DNA from: Auanema rhodensis | Taxonomy: Eukaryota > Animalia > Nematoda | Length of the DNA stretch: 64,000 nucleotides | NCBI GenBank assembly: GCA_964057225.1 | Contig: OZ059894.1 | Location: forward strand, 17,236,001-17,300,000 | Reading direction: 5' to 3' | Shown here: positions 1,955-55,130 of the stretch, in pieces | Position numbering within the stretch: the first letter of the stretch is position 1 | Layout: the number at the start of each line of letters is the position of its first letter | Translations under genes and position numbers: made by a program | Notes under the pieces: model-generated | Database searches by the model: none | What the model was told of the DNA's origin: nothing | Seen by the model: the letters and a program-made list of their open reading frames with translations, nothing else

Positions 1955-2628
1955 ACGTTTTAACATTTTGTTTCGAGAAGTGTACTTCTTCTTAGTGTTT
2001 ATTGGAAGTTCTCTTGAAATTCAATTAATGTGGAGCTTTAGTATTCACCTATAGATATCAGATTAATAATATTCAATTAAAAATATATATGGAAAAGTAG
2101 GAGGTTCATCGTAGTGAATGGATATTTCAGGCCGAGTGGTCTAGTGGTATGATTCTCGCTTAGGGTGCGAGAGGTCCCGGGATCGATCCCCGGCTCGGCC
2201 CACGTTTTAACATTTTGTTTCGAGAAGTGTACTTCTTCTTAGTATTTAATGGAAGTTCTCTTGAAATTCAATTAATTTTAAGCTTGAGTGTTCACCTATA
2301 GATATCAGATTAATAATATGTAGTTAAAAATAATTATGGAAAAGTAGGAGGTTCATCGTAGTGAATGGATATTTCAGGCCGAGTGGTCTAGTGGTATGAT
2401 TCTCGCTTAGGGTGGGAGAGGTCCCGGGATCGATCCCCGGCTCGGCCCACGTTTTAACATTTTGTTTCGAGAAGTGTACTTCTTCTTCGTATTTAGTTTA
2501 AGTTCTCTTGAAATTCAATTAATTTTAAGCTTTAGTATTCACCTATAGATATCAGATTAATAATATTCAGTTAAAAATAATTATGGAAAAGTAGGAGGTT
2601 CATCGTAGTGAATGGATATTTCAGGCCG

Positions 2629-2994
2629 CGTTCCATTCGGAGACTCTATATATGTAACTGCAGGGTTAGAGCCAGACCGACTAGAGGAATGTGGAATGGC
2701 ACCGCCTTCCCTCATGCCCCTATTCGGGAGTTCGCCCCTTTGCAAGCCCATGGACGGTTTGTATCTAACTTAGTTAATCTTATATATTAGTCTTTGTCTT
2801 GTAAATGTAGTTTACTTTATCCTTGTGTTATTGTATTGTAATGATATTGTATTGTGTATAATAAACCTATATATTTCCTTATCTTATGTAATCCTTATGC
2901 TCTGTTTCCATACCGCTACACTTATGGAATACTATACGCGTAGTTGAGCAGACTACAATGGTCTGTTCAATATACGTAGGAGCATAATGGAACG
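2629..2994 (+). repeat. E1 5' LTR
   Basis: Direct repeat of 14013-14378; 8-bp terminal inverted repeat CGTTCCAT...ATGGAACG; AATAAA near 2860. Confidence 0.97.
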
Positions 2995-3007
2995 TGGGGG
3001 TTCCACC
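2995..3007 (+). promoter_or_regulatory. E1 primer-binding site (tRNA-Gln, one mismatch)
   Basis: TGGGGGTTCCACC directly after the LTR; complementary to the 3' end of metazoan tRNA-Gln (GGTGGAACCT-CCA) with one A>G change. Confidence 0.85.
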
Positions 3008-3977
3008 TCGAACTCATTTTTGTCGCAAAAACTCGCATAAAAAGTCTATATTTTGATATCTAAATTAAAATTTCCTCCACGGTTAGCAACATAATGAGGT
3101 CGCCAACTTGTATAAGGTGCAGGTACAAGGGATCTCTCTTTTAGAGAGCTAGGACTATATAATTTTGAATTTTTACCCGCTGTCCCCACTCATAAAACCG
3201 TCTGAGTGTCCACCCTTATAATATCGTATCCTGCACCGCTTCTCTTGCATTTTTTTTTGAGGACGTTTGGATCGAAATAGGGGACAATTTCACCAAACGA
3301 AATTTTGATTTCATTATTATTTGGCACCGAGGAGTTAGAATGAAATTTTGAAAGCGCACAAAGTTTAATATTTTATTGTGGTCAGGACTAGAGATTTGAA
3401 AGTTAAATTCAGGCGTAAAAGAGCATGCTAAGCCTAAATATTTTTGCGGGAGCCGTTATTCGGTTTTTATTTTTTTTTGATTGTGAGAATAGACCACACT
3501 AGTCCGAAAAATCCTGGCACAAATTTTATTGCCTGTCAGGTCATTTTGGCGAAAGCACATGGGCTACGGATGTTTTCTTCTCCGTAGAATGTGTCACCTT
3601 CCTCAGCTCATTTTTGTTGCTAACATCATAAGATATTCCCACACACCTACCGTAGTCTTCATATTGTAATATTCTATAAATTAGTAAAATGGTTTAAAGA
3701 AAAAAATTGCGTTTTATAAACGAGCTTTGGTCTCAGTCCATTAGTAAAATGAGCAATCTTTTTAAAATATTCTCGGAATCTCATTAGCATGCCAAAATCA
3801 TTCCGGAAAAGAATCGCCCACGGCTTTTAATAATCAACGTGCACATGAGCCATTTTCCCAAGGCGCACGCACTCTTTCTTTATTAATAAGCTCGACCAAA
3901 GTTTGTGTTATGAAAAAAAAAAGAGAGAGAGAGAACAAATGAGTGAAATTAAGTATTTATTATATATAAAACAATTG

Positions 3978-4328
3978 TTAAAAGCCCCATTTAAAATGCA
4001 ACTGTCTCACAAATTCTATAGGCTGTGAGATGGGCTCATTGCTAGGCTCTAAATACTGCGAATACACTGAATCCGCAGAGGTCCTTAGCAATAAGCCCAT
4101 AGGAGACTGTTCATAAAACAAATAAATTTTAAACAAAATTTTAGACATATAATCATAAAAATCATGAGGCTTATGCTCATACCAATTCCAAGGGGATGCG
4201 ATTAAATTGGGGTTTTCATACCAATGCGCGCACAAATCGGTGAGGCACCATCGCCCAATAGCTGCAACCTCATCCGCTATTTCTTGCATTAGGGAGAAAT
4301 TCACTAATCCCCTCCCCAGATAATGCAT
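3978..4328 (-). CDS. Antisense ORF of unknown function in the E1 leader (116 aa)
   Basis: ATG-started, not overlapping another ORF, globular W/Y/H-rich composition, flanked by AT-rich tracts; no family recognised. Confidence 0.4.
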   Translation of the reverse strand: MHYLGRGLVNFSLMQEIADEVAAIGRWCLTDLCAHWYENPNLIASPWNWYEHKPHDFYDYMSKILFKIYLFYEQSPMGLLLRTSADSVYSQYLEPSNEPISQPIEFVRQLHFKWGF

Positions 4329-4926
4329 TTTTAAATCCTCGATAAACTAAAATTTTTTTTTTATTATTAATATAACATGTTTCTTTGTTTTAACCAACCA
4401 TCTTAATCATGTCTGGGTGAGGCCTATAAGCTAACACTTCGTCTTGATCATACAAGACGAGGTCAGCGTACAGCTTCCTCAAGACAAAAGTCATTTCCGA
4501 TAGACCTTCATAAGCCATTCTTTGATTATTTTGTTTCAGCTCTACAAATATGAAGATTCTTATGCATAAAAAGGGGACATAAAACGACTGAAAATCTCTC
4601 TCAAACTTTCAAGAATTCAATTAGAGTAAAGTATTAAGATTGAGGCTAGAAAGAGCGAAGACCAACAAAATTTATAATTGATGAACATCTGTGAAAAAGA
4701 ATAAAGAAAAGAGAATACGGTAGATAGGCGGAGCCAGATCTCAGGCCAAGATTTTAAAACTCTTTCTCATCTAATAACGATTCTCGGCGAAAGACGCCAA
4801 GTCTCAATCTTCAAACGTTTCTTACTTTCCCTATAACCGACCCGAATTTCTTGTCACTCATTCAACGTCAACATCCCCCATATAACGAAACACTCGCGGT
4901 TTTTCCAAACCAAGAGTGATTACAAA

Positions 4927-6519
4927 GTGGCACGAAGATACTCTTCGGCCGTCCCTGCTCTATACCCTTCTGAGTCCAGTGACGACATCGCAGTCGCCAG
5001 TCGAACCAGAAGCCGCACTCGACTCCTCAGTGTTCAGATTGAAGAGCCTGAACAAGAGGTAAAACCCAAAGTCGAGAAAACCTTCATTCCTCGAGAAGGC
5101 ACGTATTCACCTCCGGACAACACCGAGGAGGACCCTGATTTCTATATTCAGGACTACAATATTCAAACTTCAGCTTCAACTCCAAAAGTACACTCTTTTA
5201 AAAGTAATAAGAAGATTCAAAAAATTCAAAAACCAAAACAAATAACCTCTAATACTTCACCAGCCACCCCCCACCTAAACTTATCAACTTTATCAGTTAA
5301 TACTGATAACGATCTTGCATCTTCTTTTGAACTAACTCTAACACCGCAGGCATTTTCCACTCCGATAGAAAACTCACAAATTAATAAAACCTCATCTCTC
5401 ACTATTCGCAAATCACCCTTATCAGTTATCACTGATAAGCTTGATTCGAAAAAGCTTGATTCTAAAAAGATTAATAAAAGAAAAACTAATACACCGCGTA
5501 GGCGCTCAACCTCTAATAATCCCGTAGAACCAAATCAGGAAATTACCGAAGTTTTGCCCTTATCACTAACTACTGATAAGTTCAAAAGTAAGAAATCTTT
5601 AACAGCTCGCTTAATAAAAGTTTTGAATTTGTCTCCAGGGGAGGTAACAACAGAACAAGTTGATAACTCTCTTCACGTATCCTCCAACCCAACCCTTAAT
5701 AAGTCAGATAGCGCTATACCCAGCTCAAGCGTTTCAATACATTCGACGCCTCAGGCAACGAGTCGAGTTATCAAACTCCCAGGGAAGCGGTTCTCCTCAG
5801 CCGCCCCTACCATTAGTTATCCAACATCTGGTAACTCGAAAAAGGGAGGTAAGAATTTAACGGCGAGAAGCTCAGGCAGCAAAGGGATTACGTCATCTCA
5901 CACATACCCTGAGGATATACCAACCATGACGGAGACACCACGTCTTCCGGGAGCTGGTAAATCTACCATTGCGCACGCATTAAGCTCACCTTATTGCCCC
6001 ATATACGACGGAAGTCGTAACTTTAGAGATTTTGTGGCAAAGTTTAATACATTTTCTAACGCCTTAGGCTTAGTGATGCCCGAAAGACTAACTATTTTAC
6101 CATTACTATTGAAAAATGATAGAGCAATTCGAGCAAAACCCAAAACTTTTGCAGAGGCTTTTTATAGTGCTCGCTGGGAGGAATCAATTGCAAACCAAGT
6201 AGCAGACCCTCAGGCGCTATTGGTTAACGCAATTGAAAGAACTTTCCCCCCGCGCAGAAACAATGGTGGGAGAGGTATGGCAAGAGGTTATCAATCTTTT
6301 AATAATAAAAATTATCAAAATTATAATAATTATAATAATTATCATTCAAACTTTCAAAACAATCAAAATTATCATAAATTTTCAAAAAATCAAAAAGGCT
6401 GGAATTTCCAAAACCCATTTGCTAGGAACCGCATTTTGGTGACCGCGGTCGAAATTATCAGAATCAAAATCAAAATGGGTATCAAAGAAGCCACAATGCA
6501 TCACAAAATCAAGAAATGA
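4927..6519 (+). CDS. gag: Gag-like ORF: S/T/K/P-rich disordered N-terminal region, capsid-like segment (apparently internally deleted), N/Q/R/G-rich tail
   Basis: Position before pol; PIYDGSRNFRDFVAKF..LPLLLK and PKTFAEAFYSARWEE resemble the start and end of Ty3/gypsy capsid; first in-frame ATG only at 5926. Confidence 0.7.
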   Translation: MARRYSSAVPALYPSESSDDIAVASRTRSRTRLLSVQIEEPEQEVKPKVEKTFIPREGTYSPPDNTEEDPDFYIQDYNIQTSASTPKVHSFKSNKKIQKIQKPKQITSNTSPATPHLNLSTLSVNTDNDLASSFELTLTPQAFSTPIENSQINKTSSLTIRKSPLSVITDKLDSKKLDSKKINKRKTNTPRRRSTSNNPVEPNQEITEVLPLSLTTDKFKSKKSLTARLIKVLNLSPGEVTTEQVDNSLHVSSNPTLNKSDSAIPSSSVSIHSTPQATSRVIKLPGKRFSSAAPTISYPTSGNSKKGGKNLTARSSGSKGITSSHTYPEDIPTMTETPRLPGAGKSTIAHALSSPYCPIYDGSRNFRDFVAKFNTFSNALGLVMPERLTILPLLLKNDRAIRAKPKTFAEAFYSARWEESIANQVADPQALLVNAIERTFPPRRNNGGRGMARGYQSFNNKNYQNYNNYNNYHSNFQNNQNYHKFSKNQKGWNFQNPFARNRILVTAVEIIRIKIKMGIKEATMHHKIKK

Positions 6520-9500
6520 GCAATAATAGACAGAGAAATAACAGTACCTTTAGGGGAAATAACAACAATAGAGGCAGAGGTAGAGGCTCAAGAGTAAATA
6601 ATTTGACTCTGATATCTCCTTTGACTTTAGCCGTAGCTTTATCAGTAATCTTATCACTGGTTACAACAGCTGAAGCATACCAGCTATGTACTAAAGCTAC
6701 TGGAGGAGCCCTTCTCCGTCCCCCTTCTCTCCGAAAATGCTTATTACCACCAATAAAGCATATCTTACGAACAAAAGTTCATCTTTATACAAGGAATCAA
6801 ACGGCACATGAATGGGATGCATGGAGATGCTCCAAAGAAATTCATAAAATGTGTATCAGAGACCTTTTGTTCCTTAGAGATACCAATACAACGATAGCGA
6901 GAATTGAAAAGATACCAGCTGCAGAATGCAGACTGGCAGTGAGAGATAGAAGATGGAATTGGAGTGAATTAAAGAAGATCGACAGCATAACATATGCAAC
7001 TGACGAGCCTTCCTTCTCGCCAGGCCGATTTTTTAATAATGAACTATGTAAAGAGAAAGCCAGATTGGTTATCGAAAGAGGGGTTATGACACGGATGCCA
7101 GATGAAACTATAATCTCCAATTTAATACTAAATACTGAAGGATGCTTAGCGCATCATGGAGAATGTGCATCAGATACCTCAATCATCATATGGGAGAAAC
7201 AGCCTTATGAATATCGATGCAACTATATCGACATGAGTGAATATGATGCGATAATTGGAGACGGCATTATTCTGTTACCAACCACTCAATCAGCCCTTGT
7301 AATCGATCAAAAAGAGATACCGAAGCAAATATCTTCTTGTTTTAAACAGCCAATCTTCCACACCACAACTGGCAATTACATTCTCTTACCACAGTACCCA
7401 AATGACACCAATATCCATGTTTTAATAGAGAGAGAATATAAGAAACTTCCGGCGAAAAGAGATAAAAGAGCAATTGCGGAATGCACGGTTGAATTAAACA
7501 AGGAGTGGATACAAAAACAGGAAGATTTTGAAACTTTAATATTAAATATTTGTCCTTATCCTTTCTTACGACCGGTGATGAGTAATCCTGGTATTTATCA
7601 GATAATACCGCTTATAAAGGCCAGACGAGCTGTCAACCCTTCATATTCAATTATTGATTGGGTTTCAGCACATCCCGAGAAGTTTTATTTCTTCTTAAGA
7701 AGTCCCGTATATGATAAATCCATACAACGTTTCCTTCAAACATACGAAATACACAACCCTGAGGAAGCAATACTTTATTTTCTTGCGCAAAAGGAACTGG
7801 CAGCAACCACTCGCGGCGCTATACGGTATTTAACCTCACAACAATTATTAGAACAGATAGGTGACAGATTAACAGCACACGAATTTGACGAAAAACTACT
7901 AGAAAAGGACGGATCCTACCGTGAAAGAGCCGAAAGCATAGCGATGGAGCTAGCTTATACACCGGTAATATTTGAAAACAATCTGTCGGTACCATCAAGG
8001 CAAGAGGTTTTAAAATCCTTTGTGAACATGCCGCCTATCCGACCAACTTTAACAACTGACAATGCTGATGAGCGTATAGTACTTAGAAATACTCTTTACT
8101 TATACCATAACTTGATGACATTGCGAGTAATAAGGCCAAATAAAACAGCAGCAGCCGTAGATGATGAAAAGTTCCGACAATTAACAATCAATGTGCCAGA
8201 TACCAACAAACTATATCGAGATAAAGATTCTAACTACGGTATATCGATAGGCCCCCACCCTCGCATTCAAACTCCAAGCGCGTATATTGAAACGTATACG
8301 TATATTGAAACACCGCCTTATCTGACTAGAAGACTGTCATTAACGACAACAACGGACAAACCCGCTTCACTAGTTCAGGAGACAACTATAAGCTATACGA
8401 CTCGGATTCCGACGACAACCACAGTTGACACGACAACAGCCGTGATAACTACGACTCTCTCGCCAACAACATTAGCAACAGTCACTGACACGGCGTCACG
8501 AACCTTAAGGAAACAAAGAACATCATCTCCACCCGTAGAAACCAGAGAAATTCAGGCTCAGGCAACGTATACAGCGTCAAAAGTGAACAACGAAATACAA
8601 TTCAACCTCAACGTATCTCGCAGAATAGCTCAAGATCATCTACAATATACAACAACACTCATACAAGAAGAGCTACAGAAACATTTTATGGAATCTTATG
8701 AATCCATATGTGAGATTCAAAATAGATACCTCGAGCTATGGCGTTCTATTTTACACATAGAACCTACAATAGCAATGAGGACTATTTTAGGAAGAGAGGA
8801 TATTGCAGCCCGTTTCGTAGGCAGCGATATAGTTCATGTTCATATATGCCTACCTCTTCAACCTAAAGCTGTTTATCATAATCATAAGATCAATGATACA
8901 TGCTATTTGGAAACACCAGTAATAACAGAAGATGAGAGATTATATTTTGCTGCTCCAGGATCAAGAGACTTATTAACACATGGAAAAGAGATAGATTGCG
9001 AACATGTACCAACAGATGTGTACTATCAAAATGGAGAATGGATAAATATAAATGGATCGGTTGAAGTAAAACCAATATCACTCTTTGATAAAGCGAAATA
9101 CCACCAATTAACACCTTTAAAGTTCACAGGCGCTAACTTATACACCAATTTATCATTGAGAGTTTACTCAATGTCAACAGCTATTGCATATGGAGCAAGT
9201 TTAGCATCCATACGACAGAACCATGTTTTACATACTATTCACAACGATCCAAAAATTACGTCAGCCTTTAATCTTTTGAAAAAGGGCAGTGACTATATCT
9301 CTAAAGCAGCTGAGTTCACAACTTCCGCCTGGACTAGCGTAAAACAATTTCTAATAGGATCAATTGAGAGAACACTCATCTTCATAGGATCAATAGTCAC
9401 GATTGCCGCAGTATTAATAATTCTTTTCGTTGTTGCTAAATTTTGGTTCTTCAGGGCCACTCCACTAACCGTAATGCATGTCCACGAAATAGATAATGAG

Positions 9501-12500
9501 CCCCCAGGCTATGAAGAAACATTGGAACTTGTAAGCCGCCCAGACCAACAGATGCCAGATAACATCATGAAGCAATACTATCCTGCTTTAGTAACATTTA
9601 TTCCAATCGCAATACCATTTGTTGCTTCTATTGCATCAGCGGAAACAAAGTTACCATTAATATATATATCAGTTGAAGATAAACTGATTTTAGCTTTATG
9701 GGATTCAGGCTCATCAGTGTCATATGTTAGGCTCTCCACCCTCAAATATCTGAACATGGCCGAAAATGTCAAGAAGAGACATTTAGTAGCGATGGCAGCC
9801 AACAAGTCCACTTTCACATTTTATGGAAAGATAAATCTTGTAATTGAAATTGCCGGTTACGAGATCGAACACACCTTTTTGGTCTCAAACGATCATGACT
9901 GTCCTGCTCCCGCTTTAATTGGACTAGATTTCATGAAAGCGCTTAACAGCGAAAACATCGACGTTAGCCTTAAACCATCCAAGAAGAGGTTGGAGATTGA
10001 TGCCATCCCATTAATAGGAAATGAATCTATTAAGCATACGGAGATAACTGTGAATATCATTAATTTAAGAACAAAAACATTAAAACCTGATGAAGAGGCA
10101 CCTATCCCAATAAAGACAGATAAACCACTAGAATCTAACGAAGTGGTTGTCTTAGGGGATAGTGGAAGCGCATTAAAATCATTATATCCAACTGCGTTTC
10201 GTGATACCAGTGGAGTATATGTTATGTTCCGTAACGATACCGATGAAACAATAGCTATGGAAGCTAATTCAGTCATCGGACAGGCAATAATTGGAGAAAT
10301 TCCGGCTTGTGAACCCTTTAAGCATAAGCCAATTCTACCATATGTTCCGCCAGAAGCCGATTGGGAGAGTAAACTACCATATTTTCCAAGAGACTTCATA
10401 AAAGATCTTGATCTAGAGAATGCTGATCTCACGAAAGAAGAAAAACATGAGCTTACAAAAATAATTGAAAGCAATCGTGAGGCATTTCTTAACGAGGACA
10501 GGAAAATAGGCTTATTCAAAGGTTCTATAGAGCATACCATACCATTGAGAACAGATATGGATATGCCAAAGCCGAGAATAACACGTATTCCCTTAGGAAA
10601 ACAGGAAGAAATTGAAAAGCAAGTCAAAGAAATGCTTGAGCAAGGCATAATAGAGCCTTCTACATCTCTATTTAATAGCCCTGTAGTACTAGTTAAGAAG
10701 AAAGATGACACGTATAGGTTTGTGACAGATTTTCGAGCTTTAAATAATGTCACACGCAAGCAAGCTTATGTCATTCCAAGCATTTCTGACATAGTTGATT
10801 TGGCAGCAGGCGCTCAATTTTTCACAAACTTCGATTTAGTGTCAGGATTTTTTCAAATATCCTTGAGAAAATCAGATCGACCACTAACAGCATTTACGAC
10901 CACATCCGGCACATACCAGTACAAACGGATGCCGATGGGCCTTTGTGGAGCCCCTCATACCTTTCAAACAGCAGTAAGGTATTTGCAAAGTAAATGTTCG
11001 TGTAAACTATTTGTTTACTTGGACGATCTATTAGTTATATCTGATACAAGAGAACAACATCTCAAAGATATCGATGATTTACTGCAAGCAGTAGAAGAAT
11101 TGGGAATGAAGATAAAGCTTAAGAAATGCGCTTTTGCTCAACCAGAAGTGAAATTTCTAGGACTTATTGTAGGACGTCAAGGTATAAAACCTGACCCTCA
11201 AAAAGTCGCCGCCATACAAGATTATCCGGCACCAAAGAATGCAACAGGTGTACGAGCATTCTTGGGAATGGTTGGATTCTTTCGCAAATTCATGAAAGAT
11301 TTTGCACGTATCGCAAGCCCTTTATACGATCTGACAAAGGCAGATACTGAATTCAAATGGGAAAACAAACATCAAGAAGCTTTAGACCTCCTTAAAAGAA
11401 TTTTAATACAGGCACCCGTTTTAAGCCCACCTAAATCGGACCGCTTGTTTATAGTTGAAAGCGACGGTAGTAACATCGCCATAGGTGCTGTATTATTACA
11501 ACCGGAAGATCCAAAACAACCTCTGAAAAATCTACACCCTATCGCATTTGCAAGCAGAAAACTAGTTAAAGCCGAACGTAACTACGCACCAATCGAGATA
11601 GAAGCATTAGGCCTTGTATATGCATTAAATCAATTCCGTACATACATTCTTGGAACTCATACTATATGTATTACGGACCATCGACCCCTTACCAGCTTAA
11701 TGACACGCAGAGACTTATTTGGTCGTCTTGCGAAGTTCCAGCTGGTCATCCAAGAATATGATATTGAAATAAAATATCGCGCAGGCCAATTAAATAAAGT
11801 ATGCGATGCTCTATCTCGATATATAGGTGAAGAAGCTAACGATGCTAAGCCGGAAACAAAGAAGAAGAAAATGGAAGAAATTCACATTAACGCCATAAAT
11901 ACACCAACAATAAAGGAAATTCAACTAAACACCCCTTGGATTAAACGGACGATAGCGGAGATTGAATATAGAGCACAAAAGAACATGACAGCTAATGACA
12001 GATATTGTGTCATAAATGACTTGCTCTATACAAAACCAACAGACAAAAAGCCACAACCACAAGAACACCCCATAATTGAGGAAATAATCAAAGTTTTTCA
12101 TGAGGATCCTACAATTGCAGCACATCAAGGAATTATTAAAACAAAAGAAGCAATTCTAAGAAGATTCTATTGGACAAATATGCAGAACGACATTACTATA
12201 TTCATCAAGAATTGCATTAAATGTGCTCAAAGAAAAAAAGATCCACATTCCATGACGGTACAACCAATAGGTCATTTTGAGATACCAAGCAAGCCATTTG
12301 AACGAGTCCACATGGACGTAATGGGACCATTTCCCCCTTCAAAAAGAAACTGTACCTACGTCATTACCATGCAAGACGCATTTACAAAATGGTCAACAAC
12401 AATTGCTGTACCACAAATAACAACGGAAATCACAATTGACCGATTTCTAAGACATTTCGTTTACATTTTTGGACCACCCCATCGCTTGATCACCGATAGA

Positions 12501-13304
12501 GGTTCGAACTTTGTATCCAAAAAGTTCGAAGAAATGTGTACTAAACTTGGAATCAAACATGAACCAACACTACCACACCAAAAGAACTCAAATGGACAAG
12601 TGGAAAGACTTCACAGAACCCTCGAAGAAGGATTAACCCACTACTTAAAAAAGGACCTTAGTGACTGGGATACTGTATTACCAAAAATCACTTTTGCTAT
12701 CAACAATATTCAGCACGCGACTACAGGAATTGCGCCATACATTGCATTATTTGGTAAAGAATGCAGAATGTCAATGGACGCTGAATTACCAGAAACGATC
12801 ACCAAAATTCAAGAAATTTCTGAAGAATTACTCCAAAGAAGACCAGATATGGACAAGAGAGACAAAATAATAAAGAACCGCATAGCTAAAAATCAAGAAA
12901 ATGCGAAAAAGAAGAAGGATAGAACGCAAAGAGCACACCATAGAGACATTCAACCGGGCGACATGGTGATGACGACCATAAAATCACACCAAATCGACCA
13001 AAAGCTTCGGAAAAGCTATGATGGACCATACGAAGTCATCAACGTAGAAGGATCAAAAGTTCAAATCAGAAATTCATCAGGAAAACTACAAGATATCCAC
13101 AAAGATAACTTGAAAATCTTCTCTCCTGCTTCACAAAACATCTCTTACAACACTCGCGCAAGATTTCGAGAAAGTCAAGCAGAAGAAGATAGCGACATCG
13201 AAAGAATAGAAGTGATCAACAGGAACAACAAAGATAGCATAGATACAGAGCCAGAAAATGAAAATGAAGACGAAATATGGCTTCCGAGGAATGAAGAAGA
13301 ATAA
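6516..13304 (+). CDS. pol: Env-Pol fusion polyprotein (2262 aa): signal sequence, gB-like glycoprotein, TM helix, aspartic protease, RT, RNase H, integrase
   Basis: One uninterrupted ORF. PR LWDSGS (D at 9702); RT SPVVLVKKKD..DFRALN..MPMGL..YLDD (11016-11027); RNase H ESDGS..EALGL..TDHRPL; IN H..H..CIKC, HMD..TDRG..VER, GPY. Confidence 0.96.
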   Translation: MSNNRQRNNSTFRGNNNNRGRGRGSRVNNLTLISPLTLAVALSVILSLVTTAEAYQLCTKATGGALLRPPSLRKCLLPPIKHILRTKVHLYTRNQTAHEWDAWRCSKEIHKMCIRDLLFLRDTNTTIARIEKIPAAECRLAVRDRRWNWSELKKIDSITYATDEPSFSPGRFFNNELCKEKARLVIERGVMTRMPDETIISNLILNTEGCLAHHGECASDTSIIIWEKQPYEYRCNYIDMSEYDAIIGDGIILLPTTQSALVIDQKEIPKQISSCFKQPIFHTTTGNYILLPQYPNDTNIHVLIEREYKKLPAKRDKRAIAECTVELNKEWIQKQEDFETLILNICPYPFLRPVMSNPGIYQIIPLIKARRAVNPSYSIIDWVSAHPEKFYFFLRSPVYDKSIQRFLQTYEIHNPEEAILYFLAQKELAATTRGAIRYLTSQQLLEQIGDRLTAHEFDEKLLEKDGSYRERAESIAMELAYTPVIFENNLSVPSRQEVLKSFVNMPPIRPTLTTDNADERIVLRNTLYLYHNLMTLRVIRPNKTAAAVDDEKFRQLTINVPDTNKLYRDKDSNYGISIGPHPRIQTPSAYIETYTYIETPPYLTRRLSLTTTTDKPASLVQETTISYTTRIPTTTTVDTTTAVITTTLSPTTLATVTDTASRTLRKQRTSSPPVETREIQAQATYTASKVNNEIQFNLNVSRRIAQDHLQYTTTLIQEELQKHFMESYESICEIQNRYLELWRSILHIEPTIAMRTILGREDIAARFVGSDIVHVHICLPLQPKAVYHNHKINDTCYLETPVITEDERLYFAAPGSRDLLTHGKEIDCEHVPTDVYYQNGEWININGSVEVKPISLFDKAKYHQLTPLKFTGANLYTNLSLRVYSMSTAIAYGASLASIRQNHVLHTIHNDPKITSAFNLLKKGSDYISKAAEFTTSAWTSVKQFLIGSIERTLIFIGSIVTIAAVLIILFVVAKFWFFRATPLTVMHVHEIDNEPPGYEETLELVSRPDQQMPDNIMKQYYPALVTFIPIAIPFVASIASAETKLPLIYISVEDKLILALWDSGSSVSYVRLSTLKYLNMAENVKKRHLVAMAANKSTFTFYGKINLVIEIAGYEIEHTFLVSNDHDCPAPALIGLDFMKALNSENIDVSLKPSKKRLEIDAIPLIGNESIKHTEITVNIINLRTKTLKPDEEAPIPIKTDKPLESNEVVVLGDSGSALKSLYPTAFRDTSGVYVMFRNDTDETIAMEANSVIGQAIIGEIPACEPFKHKPILPYVPPEADWESKLPYFPRDFIKDLDLENADLTKEEKHELTKIIESNREAFLNEDRKIGLFKGSIEHTIPLRTDMDMPKPRITRIPLGKQEEIEKQVKEMLEQGIIEPSTSLFNSPVVLVKKKDDTYRFVTDFRALNNVTRKQAYVIPSISDIVDLAAGAQFFTNFDLVSGFFQISLRKSDRPLTAFTTTSGTYQYKRMPMGLCGAPHTFQTAVRYLQSKCSCKLFVYLDDLLVISDTREQHLKDIDDLLQAVEELGMKIKLKKCAFAQPEVKFLGLIVGRQGIKPDPQKVAAIQDYPAPKNATGVRAFLGMVGFFRKFMKDFARIASPLYDLTKADTEFKWENKHQEALDLLKRILIQAPVLSPPKSDRLFIVESDGSNIAIGAVLLQPEDPKQPLKNLHPIAFASRKLVKAERNYAPIEIEALGLVYALNQFRTYILGTHTICITDHRPLTSLMTRRDLFGRLAKFQLVIQEYDIEIKYRAGQLNKVCDALSRYIGEEANDAKPETKKKKMEEIHINAINTPTIKEIQLNTPWIKRTIAEIEYRAQKNMTANDRYCVINDLLYTKPTDKKPQPQEHPIIEEIIKVFHEDPTIAAHQGIIKTKEAILRRFYWTNMQNDITIFIKNCIKCAQRKKDPHSMTVQPIGHFEIPSKPFERVHMDVMGPFPPSKRNCTYVITMQDAFTKWSTTIAVPQITTEITIDRFLRHFVYIFGPPHRLITDRGSNFVSKKFEEMCTKLGIKHEPTLPHQKNSNGQVERLHRTLEEGLTHYLKKDLSDWDTVLPKITFAINNIQHATTGIAPYIALFGKECRMSMDAELPETITKIQEISEELLQRRPDMDKRDKIIKNRIAKNQENAKKKKDRTQRAHHRDIQPGDMVMTTIKSHQIDQKLRKSYDGPYEVINVEGSKVQIRNSSGKLQDIHKDNLKIFSPASQNISYNTRARFRESQAEEDSDIERIEVINRNNKDSIDTEPENENEDEIWLPRNEEE
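6603..9452 (+). other. env: Envelope glycoprotein domain, herpesvirus gB / class III fusogen-like
   Basis: Signal LTLISPLTLAVALSVILSLVTTAEA|Y; Cys-rich ectodomain with N-glycosylation sequons; furin-type RDKR (7458-7469) and RKQR (8508-8519); CEIQNRYLELWRSILHIEPTIAMRTILGREDIAARFVGSDIVHVHICLP..CYLETPV..EIDC parallels the gB core-helix region as I recall it; TM LIFIGSIVTIAAVLIILFVVA at about 9375-9440. Confidence 0.85.
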
Positions 13305-14001
13305 CAACAAGATAATGCTACGTTATTTAAATTATTGTAACAAAATAACGATGAATTAGAAAAAAAAAAAAAAAAAAAAAATTAATGCTAAATAACATTC
13401 AAAATAAAAATAGCATTTAATAGAGATTGAGAAAGGAAAAATAAGGCAAATTCTAAACGAGGAGATGTTATGACTAATGGTTCCAAGTTACCGTAATCCT
13501 ATGCGGACTAGAGGACATTTTGACAACCATCCGAGCTCCATGTGCCTCCCCAAATAAGATGAGATAAACACTGGTAGGCGTATAAACCACAATTTCATCT
13601 TAAGTGGTAGTCTCCATTAGTAATCAAGGATTCACTCTGGGAGACATATGGAGACACATTATTAAATCATAATCTCGGTTCAATTTAGAAATGAGTACTT
13701 CTTGAGACCATTAGTCAAAATAATAACATATTCCCATTCATTACTAGCCCCTTATTCTACAATCTCTATTAAGAAATGCTTGAATATTAAGATAATTAAT
13801 TTATGAAATTAATAATATTCTAATTCATCGTCACTTCATATTATATTGAACCCTTCTTATAAATTATTGTAATTTTGTTTTATACTAATTAAAACTCTAT
13901 CATACTATAGTTATTGTGAAGCTAAAACATTTAAACTTTAAAACTCAGTTACATATAAGCCCAAACTTTTGTTTAAAATATCGCGAGGTGCGACAATCTT
14001 T

Positions 14002-14010
14002 GAAAAAGGG
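14002..14010 (+). promoter_or_regulatory. E1 polypurine tract
   Basis: GAAAAAGGG, then CA, then the 3' LTR. Confidence 0.8.
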
Positions 14011-14012
14011 CA

Positions 14013-14378
14013 CGTTCCATTCGGAGACTCTATATATGTAACTGCAGGGTTAGAGCCAGACCGACTAGAGGAATGTGGAATGGCACCGCCTTCCCTCATG
14101 CCCCTATTCGGGAGTTCGCCCCTTTGCAAGCCCATGGACGGTTTGTATCTAACTTAGTTAATCTTATATATTAGTCTTTGTCTTGTAAATGTAGTTTACT
14201 TTATACTTGTGTTATTGTATTGTAATGATATTGTATTGTGTATAATAAACCTATATATTTCCTTATCTTATGTAATCCTTATGCTCTGTTTCCATACCGC
14301 TACACTTATGGAATACTATACGCGTAGTTGAGCAGACTACAATGGTCTGTTCAATATACGTAGGAGCATAATGGAACG
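14013..14378 (+). repeat. E1 3' LTR
   Basis: 366-bp direct repeat of 2629-2994. Confidence 0.97.
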
Positions 14379-15794
14379 GCCGAGTGGTCTAGTGGTATAA
14401 TTCTCGCTTAGGGTGCGAGAGGTCCCGGGATCGATCCCCGGCTCGGCCCAGATTTTAACATTTTGTTTCGAGAAGTGTACTTCTTCTTCGTATTTAGTGG
14501 AAGTTCTCTTGAAATTCAATTAATTTTAAGCTTTAGTATTCACCTATAGATATCAGATTAATAATATTCATTTAAAAATATATATGGAAAAGTAGGAGGT
14601 TCATCGTAGTGAATGGATATTTCAGGCCGAGTGGTCTAGTGGTATGATTCTCGCTTAGGGTGCGAGAGGTCCCGGGATCGATCCCCGGCTCGGCCCACGT
14701 TTTAACATTTTTTTTCGAGAAGTGTACTTCTTCTTAGTATTTAGTGGAAGTTCTCTTGAAATTCAATTAATTTTAAGCTTTAGTATTCACCTATAGATAT
14801 CAGATTAATAATATTCAGTTAAAAATATATATGGAAAAGTAGGAGGTTCATCGTAGTGAATGGATATTTCAGGCCGAGTGGTCTAGTGGTATAATTCTCG
14901 CTTAGGGTGCGAGAGGTCCCGGGATCGATCCCCGGCTCGGCCCACGTTTTAACATTTTTTTTCGAGAAGTGTACTTCTTCTTAGTATTTAGTGGAAGTTC
15001 TCTTGAAATTCAATTAATTTTAAGCTTGAGTGTTCACCTATAAATATCAGATTGATAATATTCAGTTAAAAATATATATGGAAAAGTAGGAGGTTCATCG
15101 TAGTGAATGGATATTTCAGGCCGAGTGGTCTAGTGGTATGATTCTCGCTTAGGGTGCGAGAGGTCCCAGGATCGATCCCCGGCTCGGCCCACATTTTAAC
15201 ATTTTGTTTCGAGAAGTGTACTTCTTCTTCGTATTTAGTGGAAGTTCTCTTGAAATTCAATTAATTTTAAGCTTGAGTGTTCACCTATAAATATCAGATT
15301 GATAATATTCAGTTAAAAATATATATGGAAAAGTAGGAGGTTCATCGTAGTGAATGGATATTTCAGGCCGAGTGGTCTAGTGGTATGATTCTCGCTTAGG
15401 GTGCGAGAGGTCCCGGGATCGATCCCCGGCTCGGCCCACATTTTAACATTTTATTTCGAGAAGTGTACTTCTTCTTCGTATTTAGTGGAAGTTCTCTTGA
15501 AATTCAATTAATGTTGAGCTTTAGTATTCACCTATAGATATCAGATTAATAATATTCAGTTAAAAATAATTATGGAAACGTAGAAGGTTCATCGTAGTGA
15601 ATGGATATTTCAGGCCGAGTGGTCTAGTGGTATGATTCTCGCTTAGGGTGCGAGAGGTCCCGGGATCGATCCCCGGCTCGGCCCACGTTTTAACATTTTT
15701 TTTCGAGAAGTGTACTTCTTCTTAGTATTTAGTGGAAGTTCTCTTGAAATTCAATTAATTTTAAGCTTTAGTATTCACCTATAGATATCAGATT
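14378..15794 (+). repeat. tRNA-Pro(AGG) array, segment 2 (6 genes; G1 of the first gene, 14378-14449, is the last base of the E1 LTR)
   Basis: 247-bp period; gene starts 14378, 14625 ... 15613. Confidence 0.97.
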
Positions 15795-18486
15795 TGTCAC
15801 ATCTGCAAGCACATGGTAAACATGTGCGCGCTATTCAAATAGCGGGAGCCTGAACAAGCCCCGCCTACAACATGGGACACACATGACACTCTTGCTTCTG
15901 GCCTAACCCAGATAGGTTGTCTTTTAGCCATGTGAGTCTCATCTCTATATCATCTCTATATATAATCTATTTAATACTTTATCATATCTCTTTATATTCT
16001 TCCTTAATGTAATTCTTATATTGTATTTTCTTGTTATCTGATAATGAATCCTTTTCTCTTTAAGTATTTGTCGTAATAAGGAAATCGGGGCGTTCGGGTC
16101 TGCCTACCTAAGGAACAAGGTAGAAGTACATATATCTTCCGACCATGAAAAGACGGGAAGAAACAATATGTAACGTGGAGGTTCCACCTTGCTTACTTTA
16201 CTGTTAATTTATTGACAGCAAGTTTACGAGACTTTTGGACTTAATTACCCAACAGTGAGGAGTAACCGAGCCGTGCACCATAATTTCCCCAAAAATTATT
16301 TTGGCTACCACTTCTCCTCCGCTCAACGAAAACTGGGAGGTGTCTGAGACGTTTGGGGAAACTATCAGACAATAGTTTTGACGAGCGTTACCTTTTTGTT
16401 ATGCACGCGCGTGCTATTTTGATTCATTACTTTATGATGTGAATGTCCAGTGTGGCAACAGAGCTCACTTTCTAGCTGAGTTGTTTGGAAGCTGGAGGCT
16501 GTTGGGATAATTTTATTTACGATTTTTGATTTTGATTCACATCCAAGGGTTCATCAGGGTTCTACTCCTGTTAACTCTTTTCTTATTAGTTCAGAGATAA
16601 TAAGAATATTTAAATTCCTACCCACCCAAGTCCACTCTACGTCTGCCAACGTTTCCTTTTTCCTATATTATTGACAGATTACTGAATTTAAATTCCTATA
16701 TCAATCTTAAATTACCTTCTAAATCTTTTGAAATTAAATTAAAAATTATCTTAATTAAGATTTATTTTGAAATTCTTTCTACAAATCTTAATAAACTTTA
16801 TAAAATTGAACTTAATATACGAGATGAGACATTTTTGTTTACTTTAAGCTTACTCACATTCAAATAGTTGGCCCACGCGTACCAGCTGTTCGGCATGTGT
16901 AGTCAATAACAGCTGTTAAAATTCAAAAGTTTTCAAACAGGCTTAAGGCACCATCTGTGATTCCTAATTTGTCTCTAAGCTGACATTAGTGATTATAATA
17001 TTCAAATATCACGACAGACGGTCAATGGTTGTTTACCATAAGCGCTAACATCTGGTGTCGTGACACATGGCTGGAGGCGGAGCTTGAAGCTTCAACGATC
17101 CTCCTTCATCAGACGCCATTGTCACAAACGTTTTTACTGGAGTCTAGTTGCTTCCAGTACGCGCTCTTATATTCATCTAACTGTATTCACCAGCCACCAT
17201 GTCGGACTCGGACATCAGCGAGGACAACAAAGATTAGGAACAAGGATCACCAGAGCCATACCTTTTGTATGTCACACAACAACAAAGAAGAATGAACAAC
17301 GGTTAATGACTTAGTTATGATAAAAGTGAATTCTACTCGAAACAAACTAACACCTTCATTCGAAGGGCCTTATTTAGTTACAGCAGTTCAAAGATCTTTC
17401 GTCGTGGTTCAAACAGATAAAGGAAAAAGCAGAAGAGTACACAAGGACTTCGTCAAACCTTACCAACGGACAACATCTATTCCGGTTATCACAATTTCTT
17501 GAAGGTAGTTTTTTTTTTAACAAAATCAAATTGTTGAAATTTTTTTATTTTATTTTGTGCCATTTCTGATTGTACCACATCTTTGTTGTTGATTGATTTT
17601 CTCTGAGAAGTCTGCTATTGTTTTACAAGGTTTTGTTTTATTACTCCAACTCTCATTGAGTAGATTTTTTTTTCAACATTCTCTTGTGAATCATGCTATT
17701 TTTTATGCTTAATCATTACTTGTATTCACCTTATGGACATTAGTCATACGGGTTAAACGAGTTTTCATTTTTTTGTACAGAACGGGCTCGACCTATTCTC
17801 AGGGTAACACCGTACCTGTACTACTCAAGAAAATGAACGACTATATCACAGTCGAATGGTTTAGAAGCAAAGCTCTCGTTTGCAAGCATTTCACTACTCA
17901 AGTGAATGAAATAGAATCTACTCGATACTACATTTCGAATTCAACAAACTTGAAGAGACAATAGCTAAACTTTCAAATCGTATTGTATACATTTTTTTTA
18001 TCCACTACACCATGATTTTTTTTTTCCAACATCCAACTATCTTAAAAAGTGAATTAATTTATTTTGTTTTTGAACGAGGACGTTCAACTTTTTAAGGTGG
18101 GGGGATGTCACATCTGCAAGCACATGGTAAACATGTGCGCGCTATTCAAATAGCGGGAGCCTGAACAAGCCCCGCCTACAACATGGGACACACATGACAC
18201 TCTTGCTTCTGGCCTAACCCAGATAGGTTGTCTTTTAGCCATGTGAGTCTCATCTCTATATCATCTCTATATATAATCTATTTAATACTTTATTATATCT
18301 CTTTATATTCTTCCTTAATGTAATTCTTATATTGTATTTTCTTGTTATCTGATAATGAATCCTTTTCTCTTTAAGTATTTGTCGTAATAAGGAAATCGGG
18401 GCGTTCGGGTCTGCCTACCTAAGGAACAAGGTAGAAGTACATATATCTTCCGACCATGAAAAGACGGGAAGAAACAATATGTAACG
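15795..18486 (+). mobile_element. E2: non-autonomous LTR retrotransposon, 2692 bp
   Basis: 381-bp LTRs 15795-16175 and 18106-18486 (one mismatch seen), ends TGTCACAT...ATGTAACG, TSD GATT, PBS TGGAGGTTCCACC 16176-16188, PPT AAGGTGGGGGGA 18094-18105. Confidence 0.96.
17317..17502 (+). pseudogene. Integrase C-terminal (GPY/F) remnant in E2
   Basis: KLTPSFEGPYLV...VHKDFVKPY aligns with E1 KLRKSYDGPYEV...IHKDNLKIF. Confidence 0.85.
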
Positions 18487-35307: not shown

Positions 35308-38300
35308 CGTTCCATTCGGAAATCAATACGTAGCAGGCGGGTTAGAATCAGACGACATGAGGCTGAGAGAGGACGACACGCCCTTCATATGGAACACAGA
35401 CTTCAGCTTTGCCTTATGGAATGACTATGGATGGTTGGTCTTCCTTTCTTAGCTCTCTTTCACTTTATATCTTTATGTAGACTTATATAACTTATTGTAA
35501 TCATGTAGACATAATAAACCTTTCTTTCTCGAGTCTTATGTTTATCCATTATGCTCTTTATCTACCGCTACATCTGGAATACTATCACACTCATCTTGTA
35601 GGCTTTATTGGTCTATAGGATCGACGTGAGAGCATAACGGAACGTGGAGGTTCCACCTCGAACATTTTATCTTGATTTCTTGACTATTTTCTCTTATATT
35701 TCGTTATTTTCAATATTTCATTGAATCTGAATTCTCTTATATCTCTAAACCATCTACTCCATGTCTTAACACAATACGGTGGGGCCAACAACGTTTAAAA
35801 GGGAACAGATGCAAGGACCACTCCTTTTGGAGATGGATATTTTATATTTTTTGAAACTGAAGTTATATTTTCCCGTTTGTTCACAATTTTCTGTCTGTCT
35901 GAACCCAACAATTTTTATATCCTTGCTGTTAACATCGAATACTCTGTTACCCGAACTCGAAGCATTTTTGAGGACCCTAGGATGAATTAGTGAACAAATT
36001 CACCCAAGGATAATTTTTATTGAGATTTATGCCCACACTTTCTCCTTTTAAGGATTGATTTTGGCTTCGAGGAAAGAATAGCCACGGTTATTTCTTTATT
36101 TTTGTGGATGAAACAATTTTGCGCACCAAATCGAGATTATTTCATATTTTGCGATCAGGACTATTTTATTTTGCGTTACATTTCTGTTCAGACAACTTTT
36201 TGCCATTAACATCCAAAAATATTTTGATAACGCATTGAATTTACACGGGAAACCTCACCTAAATGGGAGGAACATTATGAAAAGTGAATTTTAAGATCGC
36301 TATAGTCCGAAAAATCCTGTACAATTTTACGAACTGAATTATTATTAGTGATTGTCTATCAGGTCGTGTTGGCTTAAGCATATCAGTTTGGATTTTCTCC
36401 CCTTACTATATGTCACCTTCCTCATACCGTTATTGTTGGTTTGAAGCATAAGACTCATTCCTAAACACCATAATTCTTTAAATATAGTTATTGTAATCTT
36501 TAGTCATCTATTCCTAGCCATAATTTTAAAACTAGATTTCTGATCATGATGGGACTACGGTACTCATTCGTTTTCCAAATTGCTTCCTTAAAAGAGTAAT
36601 GCTATTACGAATGTACATTATGAAAACCGCTAAAATCCTTTGAACATTTACCAAAGTCCATTTTCGTGGCATTTTCGATCACTCGTGAGTCCAAGAAGAT
36701 CAGAATCGTCAGAAAAAGAACATGCTTTCTAATGATCGTTATTGTGTCATTGACAACATGTTATACACAAAACCAAGCAGAAAACGACCACACCCAGCTT
36801 TGATTTTACCAAGGGAAAGCAAGCTTATCAACAAGGTTATCGAAGAATTTCACGAAGACCCAGCAATTGGAGCACATCAAGGAATTAACAAAACTAAAGA
36901 AGCCATACTACGAAGATTTTGCTGGACAAATATGCAAACGGACATAGCAATTTTTGTGAAACAATGCGTTAAATGCGCACAAAGGAAGAAAGATCCTCAC
37001 GCTATGACCGTTCAGCCTATGGGTCAATTTGAAATACCATCAAAACCATTTGAGAGAATACATATGGATATTATGGGACCATTCCCTACTTCAAAAAGAA
37101 ACAACAATTATGTCCTAACAATACAAGATTCATTCTCCAAATGGGCGACAACCATCGCTATACCAACAATTGTCACCGATGTCATCATTGATAGATTCCT
37201 CAGGAATTTCGTATATATTTTTGGACCACCAAATCGTTTAATAACCGATCGTGGATCTAATTTTGTATCAAAGAAATTTGAAGAAATGTGTGAAAAACTT
37301 GGCATTAAACACGAGCCAACACTCCCTCATCAGAAAAACTCTAATGGACAAGTCGAAAGACTACACAGAACGCTAGAAGAAGGATTAACACACTATCTCA
37401 ACGAAGACGTAACTGATTGGGACATGTATTTACCAAAAATTACTTTTGCGTTAAATACAATAACACACGCAACCACAGGAATCTCTCCATACATAGCATT
37501 ATTTGGAAAAGAAAGTCGTATGAGATTAGACGAAGAATTATTCCCCGAGACATTACAACCAGAGATCTTGGAAGAAATTGAGAATACCGAATATATCAGA
37601 GGAGAAAGAAGAACCATCATTCAAGAAAATCTTGCAAAACATCAAGAAACCGCGAAGAGAAAACATGATGGACGACAACGAATAGAAGAAAGAGATATCC
37701 GAAAAGGAGACCAAGTTATGTTAGCAATTAAAGCGCATAAACCAGGTCAAAAGCTTCGCAAATCATATGATGGACCATTTGAAGTCATCAACGTTGAAGG
37801 AAACATGGTACAACTCAAGAATCCATTTGGAAAAATTCAAGACGTACACAAAGACAATCTCAAACTTTTTGAACGCAAAATGGAGCATACAATCGCTCAA
37901 AACACGCGATCAAATACAACGACTTATGACACGGACGACGACAGCGATATTGAGATCATAAAAGTCATAAATGGTAACGATAACTATGACTCTACTGAAG
38001 AAACAGAACCAGAAGACCCATCGGACCAAAATTGGCTACCACCAAGAAGAAGACGATGAAAGAAATAATTTCGAGATTGATAAAATTATTGTGTGTTGTA
38101 TCAACTCTCTTTTAAAAAAAACCAGAGCTATTAATATTATTATATCATTGAAAAACTTGAGTAAGACGAGATGTAAGCTAATAATCAAAAAGCATTTCAG
38201 TTTCAAAGCATATATGATTATAAAACTTCATCAATTTCAAATAATTTCCCGTAAATAATGAAGAAATGAAAGATAAGAGACATTATATTGCATATTCATC

Positions 38301-39091
38301 TGAGCAACAGTCCTTATCAAGTAGTTAATGATTCAATTCCGGAAATTATATGGGATTTAGTTTAATTTTTTTTATTATTACAATTCGCTTTGAATACGCT
38401 GAAGAAACATGCTAGCTCCATCGATAATATAGCATGACTCTCGTTTCTCTATACTCAAACAAGTTAGACATGCAGCGTCGTGCCTAAAAAGCTATTTTGC
38501 GCACTCTCGCTGACAAAATATAGCCCTGGTATTCTAAAAGATTGTTTTATTCCTTAATATTCATGTATTTTCAAATAATTTTTATTAAATTCTTTTCAGA
38601 TAATATTGTTTAACATTATATTGTAATTTATCTTTACTATTTTTATGTTAACATTGTAATTTTTATTTTTTAAAACTAAACCTTCTGCTACGATTGAAAC
38701 AAGCCACATACTTTGCTATTCGCGAGGACGCGACATAAACTCGAAAAAATGGCACGTTCCATTCGGAAATCAATACGTAGCAGGCGGGTTAGAATCAGAC
38801 GACATGAGGCTGAGAGAGGACGACACGCCCTTCATATGGAACACAGACTTCAGCTTTGCCTTATGGAATGACTATGGATGGTTGGTCTTCCTTTCTTAGC
38901 TCTCTTTCACTTTATATCTTTATGTAGACTTATATAACTTATTGTAATCATGTAGACATAATAAACCTTTCTTTCTCGAGTCTTATGTTTATCCATTATG
39001 CTCTTTATCTACCGCTACATCTGGAATACTATCACACTCATCTTGTAGGCTTTATTGGTCTATAGGATCGACGTGAGAGCATAACGGAACG
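35308..39091 (+). mobile_element. E3: internally deleted LTR retrotransposon related to E1, retaining only integrase, 3784 bp
   Basis: 337-bp LTRs 35308-35644 and 38755-39091 (no mismatch seen), ends CGTTCC...GGAACG, TSD ATAA, PBS TGGAGGTTCCACC 35645-35657, purine-rich GAAAAAATGG before the 3' LTR. Confidence 0.96.
36722..38059 (+). CDS. Ty3/gypsy integrase (445 aa)
   Basis: HHCC zinc finger (FHEDPAIGAH..CVKC), D-D-E (HMD, TDRG, VER), GPF motif, acidic tail; aligns end to end with the E1 integrase. Confidence 0.93.
   Translation: MLSNDRYCVIDNMLYTKPSRKRPHPALILPRESKLINKVIEEFHEDPAIGAHQGINKTKEAILRRFCWTNMQTDIAIFVKQCVKCAQRKKDPHAMTVQPMGQFEIPSKPFERIHMDIMGPFPTSKRNNNYVLTIQDSFSKWATTIAIPTIVTDVIIDRFLRNFVYIFGPPNRLITDRGSNFVSKKFEEMCEKLGIKHEPTLPHQKNSNGQVERLHRTLEEGLTHYLNEDVTDWDMYLPKITFALNTITHATTGISPYIALFGKESRMRLDEELFPETLQPEILEEIENTEYIRGERRTIIQENLAKHQETAKRKHDGRQRIEERDIRKGDQVMLAIKAHKPGQKLRKSYDGPFEVINVEGNMVQLKNPFGKIQDVHKDNLKLFERKMEHTIAQNTRSNTTTYDTDDDSDIEIIKVINGNDNYDSTEETEPEDPSDQNWLPPRRRR

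Positions 39092-55084: not shown

Positions 55085-55087
<3 letters not shown>

Positions 55088-55126: not shown

Positions 55127-55130
<4 letters not shown>

What the first reader, a model, noticed from the sequence alone, without database searches (positions are those of the whole stretch)
6516..13304. Gypsy element with a gB-like envelope between gag and pol, fused in frame to Pol
Seen: a single 2262-aa ORF runs signal sequence, Cys-rich ectodomain, TM helix, short linker, then PR-RT-RH-IN, with no stop or frameshift. Established: retroviruses and insect errantiviruses place env 3' of pol as a separate, usually spliced ORF, and gB-like envs are known in some invertebrate LTR elements (e.g. 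Ascaris Tas). Inference: Env and Pol would be made 1:1 as a type I membrane protein whose cytoplasmic tail is Pol, so Pol could be recruited to budding particles through Env and released by PR. I cannot exclude that this order has already been reported.
Basis: partly seen in the sequence, partly recalled or inferred. Interest (0 to 1): 0.95.

Follow-up and report, generated by a model that had tools for sequence, protein, structure and literature searches.

The report
Nematode retroelement with mid-polyprotein fusion protein
This is a young, partly broken copy of a retrovirus-like jumping gene, likely from a roundworm, that carries a herpes-like membrane-fusion protein in the same reading frame as its enzymes; the layout is real but already published, and what is new is likely cleavage and budding signals plus an unexplained extra domain in the envelope.

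Summary
Observation confirmed, novelty not. The 2262-aa ORF holds a gB-type class III fusogen (model matches prefusion herpes gB, Z 13.2), a TM helix, then PR-RT-RH-IN without a stop. It lies between LTRs differing at 1 of 366 bases. The order is published: GAG-ENV-POL elements of nematodes (Chary and Hayashi 2026, citing Sacco 2022), and this scan noted it three times on other DNA. 65 of 165 env-bearing homologues have PR/RT behind env in one protein, so a mis-join is unlikely.

One correction: the ORF does not start with a signal peptide. In relatives gag runs in frame into env. This copy's gag has a deletion and a frame break, and contigs of three DNA runs differ from the window at both. 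The family product is likely one Gag-Env-Pol polyprotein crossing the membrane twice.

Additions: one motif recurs at three junctions (likely protease sites); P(T/S)AP motifs are enriched in the Env tail (6 of 46); a ~210-aa helical domain without a clear fold match is inserted in Env; the element and three other young LTR elements sit in a tRNA-Pro gene array.

The parts
2625..2628 (+). 4-bp target-site duplication GCCG (left copy), bases +2 to +5 of a tRNA-Pro gene
2629..2994 (+). 5' LTR, 366 bp, termini CGTTCC...GGAACG (not TG...CA)
   Evidence: 1 difference from the 3' LTR
2995..3006 (+). primer-binding site, one mismatch to the tRNA-Gln 3' end listed for Caenorhabditis GAG-ENV-POL elements
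   Evidence: against rows of PMC13524379 supplement
4837..5925 (+). 363 open codons in the gag frame with no ATG, Ser/Thr/Lys/Pro-rich; in-frame GTG at 4927
   Evidence: chance of staying open about 3e-9 from base composition
5926..6519 (+). gag capsid region, broken: internal deletion near 6126 and frame break near 6426-6440
6594..6605 (+). junction motif VNNL (aa 27-30), inferred protease site releasing Gag
6606..6662 (+). hydrophobic segment 1 (aa 31-49), inferred internal signal for Env
6678..7457 (+). Env N-terminal half (aa 55-314), beta-rich, aligns with gB
7458..7469 (+). RDKR, furin-type site (aa 315-318)
   Evidence: RTKR at the same place in P0001
7560..8180 (+). inserted all-helical domain (aa ~349-555), pLDDT 86, no clear fold match
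8300..8519 (+). Thr-rich, predicted disordered stretch ending in a basic cluster RTLRKQR (aa ~595-668)
8583..9335 (+). Env C-terminal half (aa ~690-940): long central helix and beta domain of gB type
9378..9434 (+). Env transmembrane helix (aa 955-973)
   Evidence: hydropathy 3.09
9501..9512 (+). PPGY in the cytoplasmic linker, PPxY late-domain-like
   Evidence: PPxY alone is not enriched
9669..9938 (+). aspartyl protease (DSG)
10692..11759 (+). reverse transcriptase (YLDD) and RNase H
11886..11897 (+). junction motif INAI (aa 1791-1794) between RNase H and integrase
12072..13304 (+). integrase (H2C2, core) to stop codon
14013..14378 (+). 3' LTR, preceded by a purine-rich tract
14379..14382 (+). 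target-site duplication GCCG (right copy)

Best explanation
A recently inserted, gag-damaged copy of a Ty3/gypsy element of the published GAG-ENV-POL kind, likely from a nematode, whose family likely makes one Gag-Env-PR-RT-RH-IN polyprotein that is predicted to cross the membrane twice. SHOWN: domain order, LTRs, TSD, gB-type fold of the model, env-PR in one frame in many relatives, the two breaks in this copy's gag. INFERRED: Gag is made in the cytosol; segment 1 acts as an internal signal and is cut on the lumenal side (AEA/YQLC, read by eye); Env folds in the lumen and is cut by furin at RDKR; the second helix stops transfer, so the ~80-aa tail and Pol are cytosolic. The element's protease cuts at a shared (V/I)N-x-(V/I/L) motif before segment 1, in the tail and between RNase H and integrase. 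Until then Gag and Pol are tethered to Env on the same membrane, which would co-assemble the three; late-domain-like motifs in the tail may recruit the budding machinery. This is like the capsid-signal-envelope-enzyme polyproteins of flaviviruses and alphaviruses (recalled). This copy would need Gag from another copy.
For: Fold: profile of 48 sequences hits herpes gB at E 2e-17 and rhabdovirus-type G at 1e-5 (the G label 'Glycoprotein' is the depositors'); AlphaFold model, mean pLDDT 73.9, aligns to prefusion EBV gB at Z 13.2, rmsd 4.9 over 366 residues; top viral hits are rhabdo-, chu-, nyami-like and herpes glycoproteins. Fusion: of 169 fetched proteins examined (of 269), 165 match env and 65 have PR or RT behind env in one protein; P0003, P0007, P0015 run gag-env-PR-RT-RH-IN in one chain. 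Gag join: P0001 (Auanema sp., 47-48% identical) has gag tail, signal, env, PR and RT in one frame. Contigs of 3 of 3 DNA runs laid list an indel at the frame break, and contigs of at least 2 carry an extra block at the deletion. Tree: RT-RH groups with P0002 (Auanema sp., support 0.95) in a 27-member clade (0.95), 25 of them env-first, all named members nematodes. Motif, sequences used to define it left out: 5 of 19 before segment 1, 25 of 36 in the tail, 10 of 27 at RH-IN; no shuffle of 2000 reached these; background 18 of 1055 windows. P(T/S)AP in 6 of 46 tails against 0.2 shuffled.
Against: No protein or RNA evidence. Many homologues are gene predictions that may splice around stops. No single listed contig bridges TM to PR; contigs abut in the linker, and I did not translate contigs. 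This element's own tail lacks the strict motif. A third hydrophobic stretch (aa 1024-1042, hydropathy 2.07, also in close relatives) would put Pol in the lumen if it spans the membrane. 37 of 46 tails have no PPxY or P(T/S)AP; PPxY alone is not enriched (3 of 46, 146 of 2000 shuffles reach it); the gag control had 2 of 30. Sequences are related, so counts are not independent events. A 1:1:1 ratio leaves unexplained how enough Gag is made.
Confidence: 0.8

Rival explanations
1. One reading: Env-Pol is a separate type I membrane protein started at ATG 6516, with gag as its own ORF (stop-restart at the ATGA overlap or a programmed shift).
For: In the window the gag stop overlaps ATG 6516 and a hydrophobic segment follows 30 codons later.
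Against: The closest relative has gag and env in one frame and no Met at the matching place; three DNA runs differ from the window by an indel at the break; I saw no X-XXY-YYZ slippery heptamer between 6426 and 6519 (read by eye).
Confidence: 0.07
2. One ORF on paper, but splicing or early polyadenylation yields Gag-rich and Env-skipping products; the element moves mainly inside cells and Env is used rarely.
For: Capsids need far more Gag than Pol (established for retroelements, recalled). The gag frame has an unexplained 363-codon ATG-free extension.
Against: Env is open, foldable and keeps its cysteines across species. No TTT(T/C)CAG acceptor found in 2995-6600 (a narrow test). Not exclusive with the best explanation.
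Confidence: 0.25
3. Assembly mis-join or chance nesting of an env fragment into a gypsy element.
For: The element lies in a long tandem array, where assembly is hard.
Against: Same order in 65 homologues; matching LTRs and TSD; contigs of three DNA runs cover all 30 bins.
Confidence: 0.01

Closest known systems
GAG-ENV-POL Ty3/gypsy 'errantiviruses' with HSV/gB-type ENV in Nematoda (Chary and Hayashi, eLife 2026, PMC13524379; read: abstract, sections 5 and 6 part 1, 9 part 1, 14, passages, supplement file 2 parts 31-32)
   Same: Order gag-env-pol, gB-type env, ectodomain 'flanked by two transmembrane domains', tRNA-Gln PBS (8 of 36 nematode rows), near-identical LTRs.
   Different: In the main text I found no 'polyprotein', 'fused' or 'frameshift', so processing is not discussed there. 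None of the 36 nematode rows is an Auanema element, though two Auanema assemblies were screened. Figure supplements were not visible.
Nematode endogenous retroviruses of Sacco et al. 2022 (J Gen Virol, doi 10.1099/jgv.0.001739)
   Same: Seen only as a reference and as described in PMC13524379 (flipped env and pol). That it reports one continuous gag-env-pro-pol ORF is recalled; the paper is not held.
   Different: Cannot say whether it already describes cleavage sites, the insert, LTR ends or target sites.
Herpesvirus gB and mononegavirus/chuvirus G (class III fusogens)
   Same: Fold and domain layout of the model.
   Different: About 15% identity; embedded in a polyprotein; ~350-aa insert at the furin loop.
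Atlas virus, Tas, Cer7/Cer13 (BEL/Pao nematode elements with env)
   Same: Nematode LTR elements with a captured fusogen (Atlas: search listing only; Tas and Cer: recalled).
   Different: Atlas env is phlebovirus-like; these are BEL/Pao with env behind pol (recalled).
tRNA-gene-targeting retroelements (Ty3, DGLT-A, TRE5; PMC5006619, abstract only)
   Same: Four LTR insertions at or upstream of tRNA genes in this window.
   Different: Sites spread from -71 to +2 rather than one fixed distance; targeting is not shown.

Membership tests
Ty3/gypsy (Metaviridae) | pol order PR-RT-RH-IN with H2C2 integrase | tested here: met
Ty3/gypsy (Metaviridae) | LTRs, PBS, polypurine tract, short TSD | tested here: met
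   LTR ends are CG...CG rather than TG...CA
Ty3/gypsy (Metaviridae) | RT places with Ty3/gypsy reference elements | tested here: inconclusive
   tree had no named reference elements or outgroup; best solved RT match of alignment A3 is Ty3
Nematode GAG-ENV-POL elements (Chary and Hayashi; Sacco) | env between gag and pol | tested here: met
Nematode GAG-ENV-POL elements (Chary and Hayashi; Sacco) | HSV/gB-type env | tested here: met
Nematode GAG-ENV-POL elements (Chary and Hayashi; Sacco) | RT groups with nematode env-first elements | tested here: met
   the paper's own sequences were not in the tree
Nematode GAG-ENV-POL elements (Chary and Hayashi; Sacco) | continuous gag-env-pol frame (recalled from Sacco) | tested here: inconclusive
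   broken in this copy; continuous in relatives; contigs differ from the window at the break but were not translated
Nematode GAG-ENV-POL elements (Chary and Hayashi; Sacco) | nematode host | tested here: inconclusive
   inferred from closest relatives; no genome held
Class III fusogens | gB-like fold | tested here: met
   predicted model only
Class III fusogens | trimer and membrane-fusion activity | not tested
   no trimer model was run; activity needs an assay
Insect errantiviruses (gypsy, ZAM) | separate F-type env ORF behind pol | tested here: not met
   env is gB-type and in front of pol

The most novel reading that the evidence does not exclude
These elements bud in an envelope-driven way not described for retroelements in the papers I could search: Gag and Pol are anchored on either side of Env in one flavivirus-like polyprotein, budding signals sit in the Env tail instead of Gag, and a lineage-specific helical domain of undescribed fold, inserted between two basic sites, serves as the receptor-binding part that lone gB lacks. 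A second, independent possibility: the family favours tRNA-gene arrays as landing sites.
Probability: 0.3. Interest if true: 0.65.

Novelty: new member of a known kind. Interest (0 to 1): 0.3.

Why it matters
The gene order is not news. The processing model makes an open question testable: PMC13524379 (section 9) says the entry mechanism of gB-carrying elements is unknown, since herpes gB needs partner proteins. Predicted cut sites, tail motifs and the inserted domain give concrete things to measure. If tRNA arrays are targeted, it would extend a strategy known from yeast and Dictyostelium to an envelope-bearing animal element.

Tried and rejected
No whole genome held, so copy number and genome-wide insertion sites could not be examined. 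No RNA holder listed; run X12 is only guessed to be RNA, so its contigs (26 of 30 bins) are not used as evidence. Metagenome scan: 3 loci, RT only, about 35% identity, not used. Insert domain: no Pfam family; best VIA-align match a death domain at Z 6.0 over 63 residues, within noise for helical folds; no viral match below E 0.001; Atlas leads under 0.9 or none, run on homologues P0001 and P0199. This shows neither a new fold nor a function. YPxL and YxxPhi motifs are not enriched in tails (5 and 38 of 49 against 3.0 and 33 shuffled). tRNA targeting: 4 sites within 76 of 247 bp arises by chance about 12% of the time (my arithmetic), so not claimed. Literature searches for the single-ORF wording, Env-tail late domains, gypsy protease sites and nematode tRNA targeting listed nothing on these points beyond PMC13524379; I read listings only, subscription papers are not held, and bioRxiv supplements are closed.
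Full report
1. The observation. The ORF is there: 6516-13304, + strand, 2262 aa, open from 6426. Pfam gives a viral fusion glycoprotein match at aa 708-849 (E 4e-15), then protease, RT, RNase H and integrase. Hydrophobic segments lie at aa 31-49, 955-973 and, weaker, 1024-1042. The element spans 2629-14378: LTRs of 366 bp differing at one base, a 4-bp TSD, and a PBS one mismatch from the tRNA-Gln end listed for Caenorhabditis elements. The insertion is therefore young (inference from LTR identity).

2. The envelope. A profile of 48 sequences hits herpes gB structures at E 2e-17. The AlphaFold model of aa 55-955 (mean pLDDT 73.9, pTM 0.53) matches gB in Foldseek (best E 8e-12, but whole-chain TM only about 0.2) and aligns to prefusion EBV gB at Z 13.2, rmsd 4.9, 366 residues. 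Viral hits are rhabdo-like, chu-like, nyami-like and herpes glycoproteins.

3. The fusion to Pol is a family trait. The best relatives with source names are nematode proteins (Auanema sp., Caenorhabditis, Diploscapter, Ancylostoma, Oesophagostomum, Heterorhabditis, Panagrolaimus). Of 169 proteins examined (P0001-P0020 and P0121-P0269, out of 269 fetched), 165 match env and 65 carry PR or RT behind env in one chain; median TM-to-PR linker 82 aa among 46 linkers under 150 aa. Many are gene predictions, which is a caveat. An RT-RH tree of 81 sequences (35 env-first, 1 env-last, 45 of 98 without env; FastTree, midpoint root, no reference elements) puts the element beside P0002 in a clade of 27, 25 env-first; 10 other env-first sequences fall elsewhere, in line with the published non-monophyly.

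4. The correction. The first 30 residues are a basic N/R/G-rich stretch. In P0001 the same stretch is the tail of gag, in frame with env, and has no Met at the matching place. P0003, P0007 and P0015 run gag-env-PR-RT-RH-IN in one chain. In the window, gag (4837-6519) is in another frame and its capsid part is short. Contigs from three DNA runs of three studies, about 99% identical to the window, list an indel at the frame break near 6426-6440; contigs of X1 and X6 also carry roughly 0.3 kb more near 6126 (tables 4, 5, 8). They also differ by two small in-frame lengths in pol (near 10.0 and 12.06 kb). So this copy's gag is broken at two places. Whether by mutation or assembly error I cannot tell, and that the other copies are continuous is inferred, since contigs were not translated. 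No single listed contig bridges TM to PR; X6 contigs overlap by 30 bases in the linker.

5. How it likely works. One polyprotein, two membrane crossings: Gag cytosolic, internal signal, Env lumenal, TM, cytosolic tail and Pol. 59 of 63 homologues with sequence upstream of env have a hydrophobic segment at the same place. From the alignment of 10 sequences I defined the motif [VI][NH][ASNTQ][VILA]. With those 10 left out it occurs before segment 1 in 5 of 19 fused proteins (0.5 shuffled), in the tail in 25 of 36 (2.8) and at the RH-IN linker in 10 of 27 (1.4); none of 2000 shuffles reached these counts, and 18 of 1055 windows inside domains have it. The RH-IN linker is a known protease cut in this family (recalled), so the motif is likely the protease site; this is inference, and kinship inflates the counts. 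The window's protein has it at aa 27 and 1791 but only a loose version in the tail. P(T/S)AP occurs in 6 of 46 tails (0.2 shuffled), PPxY in 3 of 46 (not significant; includes this element and P0001); controls were 0 of 28 integrase tails and 2 of 30 gag stretches. Against the simple picture: the third hydrophobic stretch before PR, and the unexplained Gag supply at 1:1:1.

6. The insert. Between RDKR (aa 315-318) and a basic cluster at 662-668 lies about 350 aa: a helical domain and a Thr-rich disordered stretch. The gap between the two env halves ranges from about 0 to 490 aa among 77 proteins; this one (390) is the third longest. A profile finds the domain, whole or its first half, in 15 of 269 fetched proteins besides this one. 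Folded alone it is confident (pLDDT 86, pTM 0.81) with no clear match. A receptor-binding or shielding role is my guess.

7. Surroundings. The window is a 247-bp tandem array of tRNA genes, 166 tRNA-Pro(AGG) of 167 calls. Three more LTR elements interrupt it (15795-18486, 35308-39091, 54057-58225), each with LTRs 99.7-100% identical, a 4-bp TSD, ends in AACG and an exact tRNA-Gln-type PBS. None holds a full pol; the second is 65% identical to this element's integrase. TSDs start at +2, -69, -47 and -71 from the tRNA start. Large tRNA arrays are reported in the nematode Auanema rhodense (bioRxiv 10.64898/2026.08.27.747507, passages only); I did not try to place the window in a species.

8. What is known. 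PMC13524379 states that elements in Nematoda, Bryozoa and Platyhelminthes carry HSV/gB-type ENV arranged GAG-ENV-POL, credits Sacco et al. 2022 for nematodes, and notes ectodomains flanked by two transmembrane domains. Sacco et al. is not held; its continuous ORF is recalled. This scan recorded the layout three times on other genomes; a search by sequence found no look-alike.

9. Verdict. Real, correctly recognised in the main, and a new member of a known kind. Interest 0.3, carried by the processing motifs, the insert and the tRNA-array setting.

Noticed in passing
window 1-64000: 247-bp tandem array of tRNA-Pro(AGG) genes, 166 copies plus one called Ser(AGA) at 1883-1954.
   Followed up: partly
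window 15795-18486: 2.7-kb non-autonomous LTR element, 381-bp LTRs, TSD GATT, tRNA-Gln-type PBS, only an integrase C-terminal remnant.
   Followed up: partly
window 35308-39091: 3.8-kb deleted sister element keeping an open 445-aa integrase ORF (36722-38059) with its own ATG; identical 337-bp LTRs; shares PBS region and a leader patch (36351-36438 with 3528-3619).
   Followed up: partly
window 54057-58225: 4.2-kb element with identical 413-bp LTRs, opposite to the local array, with a 200-aa ORF (57009-57611) that has no Pfam match and no match among fetched proteins.
   Followed up: partly
window about 53815: The tRNA array switches strand here, about 240 bp before the fourth element.
   Followed up: no
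window 4837-5925: 363 ATG-free open codons in the gag frame; in-frame GTG at 4927 with A at -3 and G at +4, a possible non-AUG start for a long N-terminal extension; no homologue among fetched proteins.
   Followed up: partly
window 2629, 15795, 35308, 54057: All four elements end in AACG and two begin with CG, not the usual TG...CA.
   Followed up: no
window 3978-4346, minus strand: 122-codon stop-free frame in the 1.9-kb leader; no match among fetched proteins.
   Followed up: partly
window 9585-9641: Pro-containing hydrophobic stretch just before the protease, conserved in the closest relatives only; role unknown.
   Followed up: no
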